A program made the position numbers and the translations under genes. A stretch of DNA of 37,164 nucleotides from a virus: the IMG/VR virus record IMGVR_UViG_3300045988_130823, one strand, 5' to 3'. Positions within the stretch are counted from its first letter, which is position 1. Each line of letters starts with the position of its first letter. Below the pieces are notes generated by a model. The model had not been told where the DNA came from. It saw nothing but the letters and a program-made list of their open reading frames with translations, and searched no databases. Shown here piece by piece: positions 33,398-34,929 of the stretch.

Positions 33398-33766
33398 ATG
33401 ATGGGAGCACCAGAAATATTTAATTTACAAAAACAAATTTATTCTACAGACGAAATAAAAACCAATAAGGTTTGGGTAGATGGAAAAACTATTTATAGAA
33501 AAGTTTTAAATATAACTACTTTCAATAATCTAAATGATGGTTGGTATGACAACATAGATATGTCTTTTGTTGATAATATGATATCTGTTAGTGGTTTTAT
33601 TAAGCAAAATACAGTTACATTTCCAATTAATGCATATCATTCTGGTAGTTGGTATAATTGCTTTTACTTAAATGCTGGTGAAAAGAAAATACATGGCATA
33701 GTAAGTCAGGAATTACAAAATAAACCAGCAATGTTAATTTTAGAATATACAAAAATAACAGACTAA
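33398..33766 (+). CDS. Tail-fibre-associated protein
   Basis: The motif TNKVWVDGKTIYRKV is common in Firmicute phage receptor-binding proteins. AGGAGG SD. Confidence 0.5.
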   Translation: MMGAPEIFNLQKQIYSTDEIKTNKVWVDGKTIYRKVLNITTFNNLNDGWYDNIDMSFVDNMISVSGFIKQNTVTFPINAYHSGSWYNCFYLNAGEKKIHGIVSQELQNKPAMLILEYTKITD

Positions 33767-33782
33767 GAAAGGAAGATATGAT

Positions 33783-33839
33783 ATGGAAAAAGCTGTAACG
33801 CTTGGTGCTGTACACACACACACACACACACACAAGTAG
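33783..33839 (+). CDS. Putative 18-codon leader ORF containing (CA)11
   Basis: AAGGAAG lies 7 nt before the ATG. Translation is MEKAVTLGAVHTHTHTHK. Confidence 0.35.
   Translation: MEKAVTLGAVHTHTHTHK
33813..33834. repeat. Dinucleotide microsatellite (CA)11
   Basis: Counted directly; perfect tract. Confidence 0.95.
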
Positions 33840-33873
33840 TTTTAAATAACAAGAAAATAGGAGGTGAGTTCTA

Positions 33874-34359
33874 ATGAGCGAGCCTCTAATTTTAACATTA
33901 AAGAGAAAAGTAGAAGAGTTAGAAAAAAGAAAAACAAATATGATAATTTATACAACTTCTGAACAGAGCTATAGTCATACGGGAAATAATATATATCTAC
34001 AAGAGCCTTTAAGGTTTCAAGGCAGCAGAGGGAATTCTGGAGATAAATTAACGTTTGAAACAAATGGAATTAAAATCGGAGCAGGAATAAATCATATAAA
34101 TGTAAAAGGAATTGTTACATTTATACATTCAGAATCCGATGGAAGGCCAGTGTATTTATATATTAGAAAAAATGGTAATATATCATCAACGCAAATTATG
34201 TATATGCAAACAACTCAACCATATACTATGGCGATATTTAAAGATTATATAGAAGTAGAAGAAGGAGATTTAATACAATTATATGTTGCAATGGATAATG
34301 CGAATTTTAAAACAGCTGGAAATACAGACAATCAATTAACAGTAGAAGTTGTAGATTAA
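33874..34359 (+). CDS. C1q/TNF-like jelly-roll protein (candidate receptor-binding tip)
   Basis: An N-terminal coiled coil is followed by a beta-rich domain (GINHINVKGIVTFIH...VYLYIRKNG...GDLIQLYV...NQLTVEVV). GGAGGTGA SD. Confidence 0.5.
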   Translation: MSEPLILTLKRKVEELEKRKTNMIIYTTSEQSYSHTGNNIYLQEPLRFQGSRGNSGDKLTFETNGIKIGAGINHINVKGIVTFIHSESDGRPVYLYIRKNGNISSTQIMYMQTTQPYTMAIFKDYIEVEEGDLIQLYVAMDNANFKTAGNTDNQLTVEVVD

Positions 34360-34377
34360 AGAAAGGAAAGATGTAAA

Positions 34378-34443
34378 ATGAAAAAAATGCTAAAGCGTAA
34401 AACCGTTGATACTCTAAGAGAGAGAGAGAGAGCTACACTTTAG
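34378..34443 (+). CDS. Putative 21-codon leader ORF containing (AG)8
   Basis: AAGGAAAG lies 7 nt before the ATG. Translation is MKKMLKRKTVDTLRERERATL. Confidence 0.35.
   Translation: MKKMLKRKTVDTLRERERATL
34417..34432. repeat. Dinucleotide microsatellite (AG)8
   Basis: Counted directly; perfect tract. Confidence 0.95.
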
Positions 34444-34470
34444 TAAAATAAAGAAAAGAGGTGTCTGTAA

Positions 34471-34929
34471 ATGATACCTCTTCAAAAGCAAATAAAAAAA
34501 ATTGTTGAAAAAATAATATTAGAAGACAATAAAAAGAAATATTATGTTGGAAAAATTATATTGGATACAGCAAATATAAATCCAGTAACATATTTAAGCT
34601 TTGGAACTTGGAAGTTATGGGGTTCTGGTAGAGTTCCAGTCGGAGTAGATGTTGATGATATAGATTTTAATGAAGCAGAAAAAACAGGTGGAGAAAAAAC
34701 ACATACTTTAACTTTAGATGAAATGCCAAAACATAATCATACTTTAAATGATGGAACTGACGGACCAGGATTGTATCCGAATTGGGGAAGTATTACTGGT
34801 TGGGGTGTTACATCAGAATATTTGAATGGAAATGGTGGGGAGTCAAATTCTGCTTATACAGGAAGTAGTACTGCACATAATAATATGCCACCATATATTA
34901 CGTGCTATATGTGGAAAAGAGTTGAATAA
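34471..34929 (+). CDS. Phage tail-collar-domain protein (baseplate / receptor-binding)
   Basis: GGEKTHTLTLDEMPKHNH...HNNMPPYITCYMWKR is a tail-collar / MdpB-like signature. Confidence 0.7.
   Translation: MIPLQKQIKKIVEKIILEDNKKKYYVGKIILDTANINPVTYLSFGTWKLWGSGRVPVGVDVDDIDFNEAEKTGGEKTHTLTLDEMPKHNHTLNDGTDGPGLYPNWGSITGWGVTSEYLNGNGGESNSAYTGSSTAHNNMPPYITCYMWKRVE

What the first reader, a model, noticed from the sequence alone, without database searches (positions are those of the whole stretch)
33764..34929. Two paralogous SSR-leader cassettes in tandem, each driving a different receptor-binding-type protein: a candidate phase-variable host-range module without an invertase or DGR
The two spacers are built alike. 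Each has a stop codon, then (A)GAAAGGAA(A)GAT with an SD, then a leader ATG 7 nt on, then a perfect dinucleotide tract. A related A-rich segment of 38-39 nt follows in each, containing ...AAATAA...AGAAAA..AGGTG, and then the ATG. Their similarity suggests duplication of a regulatory unit in which only the repeat motif (CA versus AG) differs. The downstream genes encode unrelated adhesin-type folds: a C1q/TNF-like jelly roll and a tail-collar domain. Independent slippage at the two tracts would give up to 3 x 3 expression states in a phage population, so the fibre-tip composition could vary stochastically. Known phage host-range switches use invertases (Mu, P1) or DGRs (BPP-1). I see no recombinase, reverse transcriptase or inverted repeats here, and I am not aware of an SSR/leader-ORF mechanism being described for phage fibres. 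One caveat is that both genes have their own good SD, so the effect could be modulatory or even negative.
Basis: inference. Interest (0 to 1): 0.85.

Follow-up and report, generated by a model that had tools for sequence, protein, structure and literature searches.

The report
Repeat-tract switches before phage receptor genes
A gut Clostridia prophage carries two small repeat-containing leader genes in front of two tail-tip (receptor-binding type) genes. Their repeat lengths differ between otherwise identical phages, so each probably works as an independent random on/off switch for what the phage displays on its tail.

Summary
(AC)11.5 at 33812-33834 and (AG)8 at 34417-34432 are the only dinucleotide arrays in the window. 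Each lies inside a short translated leader ORF with a conserved SD and ATG.

In near-identical prophages (0-3 substitutions over 1.5 kb) the only real indels are at these tracts: CA 8-13 units, AG 8-12. Seven of the nine possible frame combinations occur.

The SD and AUG of both downstream genes are locked in stable hairpins (-14 to -17 kcal/mol). Cassette-less paralogues of the same genes lack the hairpin, and it shows compensatory changes across cassette types. In one of three frames the leader reads through the 5' arm and stops on the start codon (TAATG, ATGA).

The best model is slippage-driven leader frame choice that gates translational coupling. It is a translational version of the Streptococcus gallolyticus pil1 leader-peptide switch. 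Chromosomal copies of the same leader in the host clade use a terminator, exactly as pil1 does.

The cargo proteins are a C1q/TNF-like head (AlphaFold2 plus Foldseek) and a Gp10_C domain. SSR switching of phage receptor-binding proteins is already known from Campylobacter phages. This is therefore a new variant of a known kind. No expression or host-range effect has been tested.

The parts
33398..33766 (+). First small tail-tip gene of the array (122 aa). It has no cassette and a free ribosome-binding site, so it is presumed to be constitutive. It shares the N-terminal 'xEPxILxLxxxI' helix motif with the switched genes.
33767..33777 (+). Leader-1 ribosome-binding region (GAAAGGAAGAT), directly after the upstream stop codon.
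   Evidence: conserved in all cassette lineages
33783..33839 (+). Leader ORF 1 in its present ('short') frame: MEKAVTLGAVHTHTHTHK, stop TAG at 33837-33839.
   Evidence: It belongs to a family of more than 100 distinct called ORFs of the form x-SLGAV-(HT)n.
33812..33834 (+). (AC)11.5 hypermutable tract. It has 8-13 units in near-identical prophages and 9-18 units in other lineages.
33854..33893 (+). RBS-sequestering hairpin 1. AAAAU.GGAGGU..GUUC [UAAU] GAGC..GCCUCU.AUUUU, about -17 kcal/mol. The SD (33860-33864) is in the 5' arm and the AUG (33874) sits at the loop/stem junction. The long-frame leader stop TAA (33872-33874) is in the loop.
33874..34359 (+). Switched gene 1 (161 aa): an N-terminal helix plus a C1q/TNF-like jelly-roll head.
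   Evidence: Homologues are fused to tail-fibre N-termini and to a Collar domain.
34360..34372 (+). Leader-2 ribosome-binding region (AGAAAGGAAAGAT).
34378..34443 (+). Leader ORF 2 in its present ('short') frame: MKKMLKRKTVDTLRERERATL, stop TAG at 34441-34443.
34417..34432 (+). (AG)8 hypermutable tract. It has 8-12 units in near-identical prophages.
34456..34482 (+). RBS-sequestering hairpin 2. AAGAGGUGUC [UGUAAAU] GAUACCUCUU, 10 bp, about -14 to -16 kcal/mol. The SD is fully paired. The long-frame leader stop TGA (34472-34474) overlaps the ATG at 34471.
34471..34929 (+). Switched gene 2 (152 aa): Gp10_C (T4 baseplate gp10 C-terminal / tail-fibre tip) domain.

Best explanation
Each cassette is a slippage-driven translational switch.

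Shown from sequence:
- A short leader ORF with its own SD and ATG contains a perfect dinucleotide tract.
- The tract changes length by whole units far faster than the surrounding DNA mutates. Each unit shifts the leader frame by 2 nt.
- Two of the three frames stop 22-37 nt before the next gene.
- The third frame stays open through the downstream gene's SD and stops on its start codon (TAATG or ATGA).
- That SD and AUG are locked in a stable hairpin that is specific to cassette-preceded genes.

Inferred:
- In the long frame, the ribosome translating the leader melts the hairpin and hands over to the start codon. This is translational coupling, and the gene is ON.
- In the short frame the hairpin stays closed, and the gene is OFF or very low.
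- The middle frame, whose stop lies 2-5 nt before the hairpin, may give an intermediate level.

The two tracts vary independently. A lysogen population would therefore produce virions with different combinations of two optional tail-tip heads, a C1q/TNF-like head and a Gp10_C head, on top of a constitutive first head. That would be bet-hedging on receptor choice. In this window both leaders are in the short frame.
For: Hypermutability:
- Over 33398-34929, L106 and L113 have 0 substitutions relative to the window but differ at both tracts.
- L114, L129, L130 and L132 have 1 substitution each, and L127 has 3.
- Every indel is at 33812 or 34417, except a compensating 1-nt deletion/insertion pair in L127 at 34058/34063, which I take to be an alignment artefact.
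- CA/AG unit counts: window 11/8, L106 13/9, L113 12/11, L114 8/10, L127 9/9, L129 10/8, L130 10/9, L132 9/10. That is 7 of the 9 possible frame combinations.
- Every other lineage is also polymorphic. All three frames are populated: 6 short, 12 middle and 9 long among 27 CA cassettes.

The leader is translated:
- SD and ATG are conserved in all lineages.
- Length differences upstream of the tract preserve the reading frame.
- The Gly codon varies synonymously (GGT/GGC/GGG).

The hairpin is real and belongs to the cassette:
- Its folding z-scores are -3.6 and -3.7 against shuffles.
- All 27 cassette-preceded gene starts listed fold at -14.6 to -17.2 kcal/mol.
- All 16 cassette-less paralogue starts fold at -0.1 to -5.5 kcal/mol. 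One of these encodes a protein 84% identical to the 161-aa protein.
- The two window starts rank 1st and 4th of 55 gene starts in the window.
- Across three hairpin types, codon 2 (AGC, UCU, AUA) covaries with the SD-AUG spacer (GUU, AGA, UGU).

The architecture recurs:
- One frame is open to the start codon in five cassette versions. These are CA->161 aa, AG->152 aa, AG->121 aa (L005), the AG/161 hybrid (L121), and CA->143 aa in a different prophage (L135).
- Chromosomal copies in the host clade pair the same leader with an intrinsic terminator. Only the long frame reaches its 5' arm (L099; L139-142). This is the experimentally proven design of S. gallolyticus pil1 (PMC3894217).

The cargo is receptor-binding type.
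Against: - There are no expression, proteomic or adsorption data. Which frame is ON is inferred from coupling logic only.
- The one interrupted, probably locked, tract seen (L005: AGAGAGAAAGAGAGAG) sits in the short frame. That is unexpected if short means fully OFF.
- Frame states among assemblies are close to uniform. This fits a switch, but it also fits no frame constraint at all.
- All complete tracts are at least 16 nt. That is the length at which CA tails reach maximal ribosome-standby activity in E. coli (PMC5934652). A frame-independent effect is therefore possible.
- The hairpins are predictions. The covariation rests on three paralogous types, not on a deep alignment.
- The strong conservation of SLGAV just before the tract is not explained by the model.
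- Within-population heterogeneity is supported only indirectly, by contigs that break at the tracts.
Confidence: 0.65

Rival explanations
1. Ribosome standby or translational enhancer. The unstructured (CA)n or (AG)n stretch serves as a landing pad that lets 30S subunits initiate at the structured ribosome-binding site. Tract length at or above about 16 nt is what matters. Length variation above that is neutral or acts as an analogue dial, independent of the leader's reading frame.
For: CA-repeat tails placed 5' of a sequestered RBS raise translation strongly and saturate at 16-18 nt (PMC5934652). Every complete tract seen here has at least 8 units, which is 16 nt. No frame is preferred among assemblies.
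Against: The tract lies inside an ORF with a conserved SD and ATG, frame-preserving indels and a conserved peptide motif. It is therefore translated rather than free. It ends 20 nt or more before the hairpin. The conserved pattern of two closed frames and one open frame, with the stop on the start codon, is unexplained by this model. So is reuse of the same leader with terminators in the chromosome. Standby in E. coli is linked to ribosomal protein S1, which Firmicute ribosomes lack in functional form (background knowledge).
Confidence: 0.15
2. A constitutive coupling device with an incidental unstable repeat. The leader and hairpin only tie translation of each tail-tip gene to its neighbour. 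The tract is mutationally unstable, but its state has little effect on output, for example because ribosomes terminating 22-37 nt upstream still reinitiate.
For: The interrupted L005 tract sits in the short frame. Frame states are close to uniform.
Against: Long perfect tracts persist in all lineages and in chromosomal relatives. More than 30 independent tracts were seen and only one is interrupted. That argues for maintenance of mutability rather than decay. Hairpins of -14 to -17 kcal/mol are expected to block independent initiation. The same design is a proven switch in S. gallolyticus (PMC3894217).
Confidence: 0.1
3. The repeat has a product-level function. Either the (His-Thr)n or (Arg-Glu)n peptide is functional, or the (AN)n RNA is a binding site for an RNA-binding protein such as Gram-positive Hfq, whose distal face binds A-N repeats (recalled from memory, not tested here).
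For: Both tracts have A at every second position. The alternating peptide is the same in any reading frame. The SLGAV motif before the tract is conserved at the peptide level.
Against: A peptide or an A-N site would tolerate synonymous or N-position changes, yet the tracts are perfect dinucleotide arrays. Unit counts range from 8 to 18 with no preferred length. The C-terminal tails differ by frame and by context.
Confidence: 0.05
4. Sequencing or assembly artefact. The tract-length differences are stutter or assembler errors, not real alleles.
For: Dinucleotide repeats are prone to PCR stutter. Several contigs break at the tracts.
Against: Differences of up to 5 units (CA) and 4 units (AG) occur between independent samples, assemblers and databases, in contigs up to 1.7 Mb long. 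They occur in every lineage. Stutter rarely shifts a consensus by more than one unit.
Confidence: 0.02

Closest known systems
Streptococcus gallolyticus pil1 leader-peptide phase variation (Danne et al. 2014, PMC3894217)
   Same: An SSR lies inside a translated upstream leader ORF. The unit length is not a multiple of 3, so slippage moves the leader's stop codon. Only long leaders reach a downstream hairpin, and the ribosome melts it. The host is a Firmicute and the target is a surface structure. Chromosomal relatives of this cassette (L099, L139-142) match the pil1 design fully, terminator included.
   Different: In the window the hairpin is not a terminator. It sequesters the SD and AUG of the next gene, so control would act on translation initiation (coupling) rather than on transcription. 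The repeat is a dinucleotide, (AC)n or (AG)n, rather than GCAGA. The unit sits inside an operon between genes, is portable, and occurs twice in tandem. It is carried by a phage.
Campylobacter phage polyG tracts in receptor-binding protein genes (Sorensen et al. 2021, Cell Rep 35:109214, as cited in PMC11868660)
   Same: Slippage at an SSR switches expression of phage receptor-binding proteins and creates mixed virion populations.
   Different: There the tracts are homopolymeric G inside the receptor-binding protein coding sequence, giving frameshift ON/OFF. Those are lytic phages of a Gram-negative host. Here the coding sequence is untouched and the SSR acts through a leader ORF and an RBS hairpin in temperate phages of Clostridia.
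T2/T4 contingency loci (Gomez, Barrick & Waters 2025 preprint, PMC12633550)
   Same: Phage SSRs act as bet-hedging devices.
   Different: Those are short homopolymers (6 nt or more) inside ORFs such as agt and rIIA. That survey found such SSRs under-represented in tail-fibre-type genes. It describes no leader ORF or RNA structure.
[quoted passage not shown]
   Same: The downstream SD and AUG are base-paired and become available only when a ribosome translates an upstream ORF into the structure.
   Different: In those systems the upstream ORF has a fixed frame, or stalling is drug-induced. Here a hypermutable repeat decides whether the upstream ribosome reaches the structure.
Helicobacter pylori CT/AG dinucleotide repeats in the 5' ends of outer-membrane protein genes such as oipA (PMC10564699), and the AG repeats in the Mycoplasma mycoides Type III mod gene (PMC3498834)
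   Same: Dinucleotide (AG/CT) tracts act as phase-variation elements.
   Different: Those tracts lie within the regulated gene's own coding sequence.
Phage host-range switches by invertase (Mu Gin, P1 Cin) or by diversity-generating retroelements (BPP-1); background knowledge
   Same: They give the same biological outcome, which is alternative tail-fibre specificities within one phage population.
   Different: No invertase, inverted repeats, reverse transcriptase or template/variable repeats are present here.

Membership tests
SSR contingency (phase-variable) locus | A perfect simple-sequence tract well above chance length | tested here: met
   (AC)11.5 and (AG)8 are the only dinucleotide arrays in 37 kb.
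SSR contingency (phase-variable) locus | Tract length is polymorphic among otherwise identical sequences | tested here: met
   Relatives with 0-3 substitutions over 1.5 kb differ at both tracts, and the only real indels are at the tracts.
SSR contingency (phase-variable) locus | A change in unit number alters a reading frame or a regulatory spacing | tested here: met
   The leader ORF stop moves between three positions.
SSR contingency (phase-variable) locus | High-frequency reversible switching within a clonal population, with a phenotype | not testable with these tools
   Only indirect evidence: contigs that break at the tracts (L115, L116, L128, L131, L133).
Leader-peptide-length attenuation switch (S. 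gallolyticus pil1 type) | The SSR lies in a translated leader ORF upstream of the regulated genes | tested here: met
   Conserved SD and ATG, frame-preserving indels, conserved peptide motif. Translation itself is inferred.
Leader-peptide-length attenuation switch (S. gallolyticus pil1 type) | Only some frames bring the leader stop codon into or next to a downstream hairpin | tested here: met
   The stop lies 37, 27 or 2 nt (CA) and 30, 22 or -1 nt (AG) from the next ATG.
Leader-peptide-length attenuation switch (S. gallolyticus pil1 type) | The hairpin is an intrinsic transcription terminator | tested here: not met
   The window hairpins hold the SD and AUG and lack a U-tract. The terminator scan found none there. 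The feature is met in the chromosomal relatives L099 and L139-142.
Translational coupling via a sequestered RBS | The SD and AUG of the downstream gene are base-paired in a stable local structure | tested here: met
   Hairpins of -14 to -17 kcal/mol with z about -3.6. They are specific to cassette-preceded genes and show compensatory changes across types. These are predictions, not structure probing.
Translational coupling via a sequestered RBS | The upstream ORF terminates at or within the structure | tested here: met
   This holds in one frame of three (TAATG, ATGA). The window's present alleles are not in that frame.
Translational coupling via a sequestered RBS | Downstream translation depends on upstream translation | not testable with these tools
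   Needs reporter assays.
Phage receptor-binding or tail-tip proteins | Fold or domain of known receptor-binding modules, located in the tail module | tested here: met
   The genes lie after the tape-measure protein, the DUF6711 protein and the 708-aa tail protein. The 152-aa protein matches Gp10_C at 2.4e-27. The 161-aa model hits the phi812 spike knob and cyanophage fibre receptor-binding domains at E of 1e-8 to 1e-7. Receptor binding itself is untested.
Invertase or DGR host-range switches | A site-specific invertase with flanking inverted repeats, or a reverse transcriptase with template/variable repeats | tested here: not met
   The Pfam scans of the ten largest other ORFs and of the tail and lysis module genes found only a lysogeny integrase (39-1274, minus strand) and no reverse transcriptase; smaller ORFs elsewhere in the window were not scanned. 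There are no meaningful inverted or direct repeats in 32000-36000.
Ribosome standby site | A single-stranded, untranslated stretch directly flanking a structured RBS | tested here: inconclusive
   The tract is unstructured and at least 16 nt long. However, it lies inside a leader ORF and ends 20 nt or more before the hairpin.
Rfam RNA families | A match to a curated covariance model | tested here: not met
   No hit at E of 1 or below in 33600-34700.

The most novel reading that the evidence does not exclude
A portable, modular phase-variation cassette family is shared between uncultured gut Clostridia (the Clostridium sp. CAG:354 group) and their prophages. Each cassette has an SD, a short leader ending in SLGAV or DTL, an (AC)n or (AG)n tract, two out-of-frame stops, and one open frame leading into an RNA hairpin. 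On the chromosome it gates transcription through a terminator, placed in front of variable membrane-anchored proteins and a regulator gene. In phages the same leader has been rewired to an RBS-sequestering hairpin, and it gates translation of interchangeable tail-tip heads. Two or more cassettes in series would then give combinatorial, heritable and reversible virion heterogeneity. Host and phage would be using the same switch on both sides of the receptor arms race.
Probability: 0.5. Interest if true: 0.85.

Novelty: new variant of a known kind. Interest (0 to 1): 0.74.

Why it matters
If the model holds, it would be the first phage host-recognition switch that leaves the receptor-binding genes intact and toggles them through a mutable upstream leader and translational coupling. 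It would also be a natural, compact, modular stochastic switch of about 110 nt that can be placed in front of any gene.

It would extend phase variation of phage receptor-binding proteins from lytic Campylobacter phages to temperate phages of abundant, uncultured human-gut Clostridia. The identical 161-aa protein is seen on 646 contigs.

It suggests that tract lengths in metagenomes can be read directly as virion-composition states. The chromosomal copies indicate that the host clade uses the same device. Both sides of a phage-host receptor arms race could then be tracked from sequence data alone.

Tried and rejected
- Promoter-spacing phase variation: rejected. The nearest -35-like and -10-like hexamers would be more than 30 nt apart, and the promoter scan shows no enrichment.
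- Fusion of the leader to the downstream protein by frameshift: rejected. All three frames close before or at the start codon. The one 'fusion' protein in the database (P0029) comes from an odd scaffold, L134, that lacks the hairpin region. It starts at an internal GTG chosen by the gene caller.
- Known RNA family or riboswitch: none found. The SCARNA7 and mir-4703 hits in L099 are sub-threshold and repeat-driven.
- Invertase, DGR or shufflon: no reverse transcriptase, invertase or repeats.
- GenBank phage collection: no relative, only a 76-nt chance-level hit.
- A pilin identity for the chromosomal downstream protein: not supported. N_methyl scores only E = 0.08.
- L103 from the metagenome scan is a chance match with no tract.
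- Sampling many alleles of the identical protein P0001 failed, because the look-up collapses similar places. I used 99%-identical variants instead.
- Direct sequence search of the 161-aa protein against PDB gave nothing. Only the fold search was informative.
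Full report
**1. What is in the window**

The window is a complete temperate siphovirus-type prophage. It carries:
- an integrase (39-1274, minus strand) and an S24/HTH repressor;
- replication genes, a minor capsid protein, a tape-measure protein (27096-30104) and a DUF6711 protein;
- a 708-aa tail protein (PHROG 'tail protein');
- five small genes;
- a 112-aa protein and a C39/SH3 lysin;
- a partial tRNA 3' end at 37035-37075, probably attR.

The 161-aa protein is identical to a protein recorded on 646 contigs, one copy of which is named 'unknown [Clostridium sp. CAG:354]'. Others come from 'MAG: Clostridia bacterium' records. The host is therefore an uncultured gut Clostridia lineage.

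**2. The observation**

- TRF reports (AC)11.5 at 33812-33834 and (AG)8 at 34417-34432. These are the only dinucleotide arrays in 37 kb.
- Each tract lies in a short ORF with an SD about 7 nt upstream of its ATG. Leader 1 (33783-33839) encodes MEKAVTLGAVHTHTHTHK. Leader 2 (34378-34443) encodes MKKMLKRKTVDTLRERERATL.
- With the tracts removed, the two spacers align with z = 6 against shuffles.
- Relatives supply intermediate forms. These include CA leaders ending LDTV, leaders with RETLGAV, and AG-type leaders fused to the CA-type 3' half.

The two units are true paralogues.

**3. The tracts are hypermutable**

I collected relatives in six ways:
- by protein homology in IMG/VR;
- by exact DNA pattern in IMG/VR;
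- by pattern in GTDB genomes;
- by pattern in JGI/ENA metagenomes;
- by look-up of 99-100%-identical proteins;
- by look-up of the 97%-identical protein P0018, which supplied a second lineage.

Across 33398-34929, seven independent contigs of the same prophage carry 0, 0, 1, 3, 1, 1 and 1 substitutions. Six of them differ from the window at both tracts, and L129 differs only at the CA tract. Every indel maps to 33812 or 34417, apart from one compensating 1-nt pair in L127 that I take to be an alignment artefact.

| Contig | CA units | AG units |
|---|---|---|
| window | 11 | 8 |
| L106 | 13 | 9 |
| L113 | 12 | 11 |
| L114 | 8 | 10 |
| L127 | 9 | 9 |
| L129 | 10 | 8 |
| L130 (NCBI GCA_037069265.1) | 10 | 9 |
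| L132 | 9 | 10 |

Five further contigs start or end inside a tract. One of them is a 623-nt, 46x-coverage contig bounded by both tracts. Such breaks are expected if several lengths coexist in one sample, but they do not prove it.

Every other lineage is also polymorphic: 18/18/16/18; 16/15/14/16/15; 16/14/9/14; 11/10; and 10/15/11/10/12/10/15. More than 30 independent tracts were seen, and only one is interrupted (L005).

**4. What a length change does**

One unit shifts the leader frame by 2 nt.

| Cassette | Frame | Leader ending | Stop position |
|---|---|---|---|
| CA | short | ...K* | 37 nt before the next ATG |
| CA | middle | ...TSSFK* | 27 nt before the next ATG |
| CA | long | ...QVVLNNKKIGGEF* | TAA overlaps the ATG (TAATG) |
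| AG | short | ...ATL* | 30 nt before the next ATG |
| AG | middle | ...SYTLVK* | 22 nt before the next ATG |
| AG | long | ...LHFSKIKKRGVCK* | TGA overlaps the ATG (ATGA) |

The window is short/short and L106 is long/long. Seven of the nine combinations occur among eight complete contigs, so the two tracts vary independently. Among 27 CA cassettes the states are 6 short, 12 middle and 9 long.

**5. The missing link: sequestered ribosome-binding sites**

RNA folding places the SD and AUG of both downstream genes in stable hairpins.
- Hairpin 1 is at 33854-33893: GGAGGU pairs with GCCUCU, with an inner stem and an outer stem, about -17 kcal/mol, z = -3.6.
- Hairpin 2 is at 34456-34482: AAGAGGUGUC pairs with GAUACCUCUU, about -14 to -16 kcal/mol for the hairpin; the 81-nt segment containing it folds with z = -3.7.

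Four controls argue that this is not incidental.
- All 27 cassette-preceded gene starts listed fold at -14.6 to -17.2 kcal/mol. They cover the 161-aa family, a 128-aa cargo and the 152-aa gene. The 121-aa cargo of L005 folds at -16.8.
- All 16 cassette-less paralogue starts fold at -0.1 to -5.5 kcal/mol. One encodes a protein 84% identical to the 161-aa protein. It codes the same N-terminus with CCAAAA instead of CCUCUA.
- Within the window, the two starts rank 1st and 4th of 55 gene starts (median -5.3).
- Across three hairpin types, the second codon differs (AGC, UCU, AUA) and the SD-AUG spacer changes in a compensating way (GUU, AGA, UGU). Two different serine codons are each matched by their complement.

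A scan of IMG/VR for the hairpin sequence alone returned exactly the eight loci that carry the CA tract.

**6. Mechanism**

Only the long-frame leader is translated through the 5' arm of the hairpin and terminates in its loop, on the start codon. That is the classical geometry of translational coupling through a sequestered RBS. I therefore infer the following:
- long frame = ON;
- short frame = OFF or very low;
- middle frame = possibly intermediate, because its stop lies 2-5 nt before the hairpin and a terminating ribosome would reach into the 5' arm.

The steps shown are tract polymorphism, the frame consequences, the leader ORF conservation, and the hairpin's specificity and covariation. 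The steps inferred are translation of the leader, the inhibitory effect of the hairpins, and which state is ON.

**7. Support from relatives with a different read-out**

A search with a leader peptide found more than 100 distinct called ORFs of the form x(4-12)-SLGAV-(HT)n-tail, with many unrelated tails.
- In a different prophage lineage (L135-138), a CA leader ends ...KEVLI*, overlapping the ATGA of a 143-aa gene (MIPQIK...). That gene's SD is paired (GAGGUGUUA with UGAUACCUC, -10.3 kcal/mol).
- In host chromosomes (L139-142), the same leader is followed by a 23-bp terminator (-34 kcal/mol plus a U-tract). With n = 15 the leader runs 61 nt to a TAG at the top of the 5' arm. With n = 16 or 17 it stops 8 or 3 nt after the tract.
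- L099 has a perfect TTGACA-17-TATAAT promoter, a leader, (AC)14 and a strong terminator that only the long frame enters.

This is the design shown experimentally for the S. gallolyticus pil1 pilus operon. There, GCAGA repeats set the leader length, and long leaders destabilise a terminator (PMC3894217). The phage cassettes look like the same leader module rewired from a terminator to an RBS hairpin.

**8. The cargo**

- The 152-aa protein matches Pfam Gp10_C (2.4e-27), T4 gp10 in PDB, and several PHROG tail and tail-fibre families.
- The 161-aa protein has no sequence-family match. Its AlphaFold2 model (pLDDT 87.4, pTM 0.79) is an N-terminal helix plus a jelly roll.
- The best structural matches are the phage phi812 central-spike knob (1.7e-8), the cyanophage A4 tail and the A-1(L) short-tail-fibre receptor-binding domain. 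RANKL, C1q and BclA/ExsF follow.
- Homologues of the head domain occur fused to tail-fibre N-termini and to a Collar domain.
- All the small tail-tip genes share an N-terminal 'EPxILxLxxxI' helix, including the cassette-less first gene (33398-33766). Alternative heads may therefore dock on one common site. This is an inference.
- In every array, the first head gene lacks a cassette and the later ones carry one.

**9. Rivals**

- The strongest rival is a frame-independent standby or enhancer role for the unstructured tract. CA tails of 16-18 nt maximally activate a sequestered RBS in E. coli (PMC5934652), and no complete tract here is shorter than 16 nt. Against it stand the conserved translated leader, the stop-codon architecture and the terminator-coupled relatives.
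- A constitutive coupling device with an incidental repeat, a functional repeat peptide or A-N RNA site, and an assembly artefact are each less likely. Reasons are given in the rival entries.

Three observations sit uneasily with the model. The interrupted L005 tract lies in the short frame. The frame distribution is close to uniform. The SLGAV conservation is unexplained.

**10. Novelty**

Several elements are already published:
- SSR switching of phage receptor-binding proteins, through polyG tracts in Campylobacter phages (Sorensen 2021, via PMC11868660);
- contingency loci in T2/T4 (PMC12633550);
- leader-peptide SSR switches (PMC3894217).

In six literature searches I found no description of any of the following:
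- a dinucleotide tract in an intergenic leader ORF gating translational coupling;
- such a switch in front of phage tail-tip genes;
- this cassette family in gut Clostridia.

I rate the finding a new variant of a known kind. The sequence evidence is strong and the functional evidence is untested.

Noticed in passing
L099 2684-3329 (uncultured Clostridia MAG CANQRS010000027.1): A stand-alone chromosomal copy of the CA leader. It has a perfect TTGACA-17-TATAAT promoter, an SD, the leader MKKTKIAKSLGTV(HT)n and (AC)14. A strong terminator follows (about -35 kcal/mol, z = -5.3) whose 5' arm is entered only by the long frame. An XRE-type HTH gene comes next.
   Followed up: partly
L139-L142 (leader at 2501-2629 in L139; downstream gene at 2800-4077): Chromosomal CA leader plus a 23-bp terminator, in front of a strain-variable protein of 425, 393 or 308 aa. 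The protein has an N-terminal hydrophobic helix and resembles a pilin, but N_methyl scores only E = 0.08. In one strain a TnpV/Schlafen-type island replaces it. The host clade appears to use the same switch for a variable envelope protein.
   Followed up: partly
L135-L138, 2470-3030: A different prophage lineage, with a Peptidase_S74 fibre. It carries a (AC)15 leader ending on the ATGA of a 143-aa gene (MIPQIK...) whose SD is paired. Its 3' half is homologous to the window's AG cassette, so the 5' and 3' cassette halves recombine.
   Followed up: partly
P0103-P0222; window 33798-33811: The five codons just before the (AC)n tract, S/T-L-G-A-V (AGC CTT GGN GCT GTA), are conserved in more than 100 distinct leader ORFs that have unrelated tails. 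Before the (AG)n tract the equivalent is T-[IV]-D-T-L. The frame-switch model does not require this conservation.
   Followed up: no
L115, L116, L128, L131, L133, L100, L101, L102: Contigs begin or end exactly inside the tracts. L116 is a 623-nt contig at 46x coverage that is bounded by the CA tract on one side and the AG tract on the other. This suggests that several tract lengths, or several cassette copies, coexist within a sample.
   Followed up: no
L005 3542-3557 (same contig as L098): This is the only interrupted tract seen (AGAGAGAAAGAGAGAG). It is presumably locked, and it sits in the short leader frame in front of a 121-aa cargo gene that still has the RBS hairpin.
   Followed up: partly
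L134 426-941 (protein P0029): In this scaffold, an unrelated 29-nt stretch replaces the A-rich spacer, the hairpin and the first 16 codons of the 161-aa gene. The gene caller then produces a 'THTHTHT...' fusion protein. It could be an assembly artefact or a defective recombinant.
   Followed up: partly
window 22151-22225: A tRNA-Trp (CCA) gene lies inside the phage, between the head-morphogenesis genes.
   Followed up: no
window 36910-37147: The 3' part of a tRNA (GGTTCGAGCCCAAC...GGAGCCA, about 37035-37075) lies just after the lysin gene and is probably attR of a tRNA-integrated prophage. The 18-mer TTCCCACATTTTTCCCAC occurs on both sides of it (about 36910 and 37130).
   Followed up: no
window 20226-20296: The listed GTG start at 20256 (minor capsid protein 2 homologue) also sits in a strong local hairpin (-15.6 kcal/mol, 14 bp). 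It ranks second among the 55 gene starts. The true start or the regulation of this gene may differ from the ORF call.
   Followed up: no
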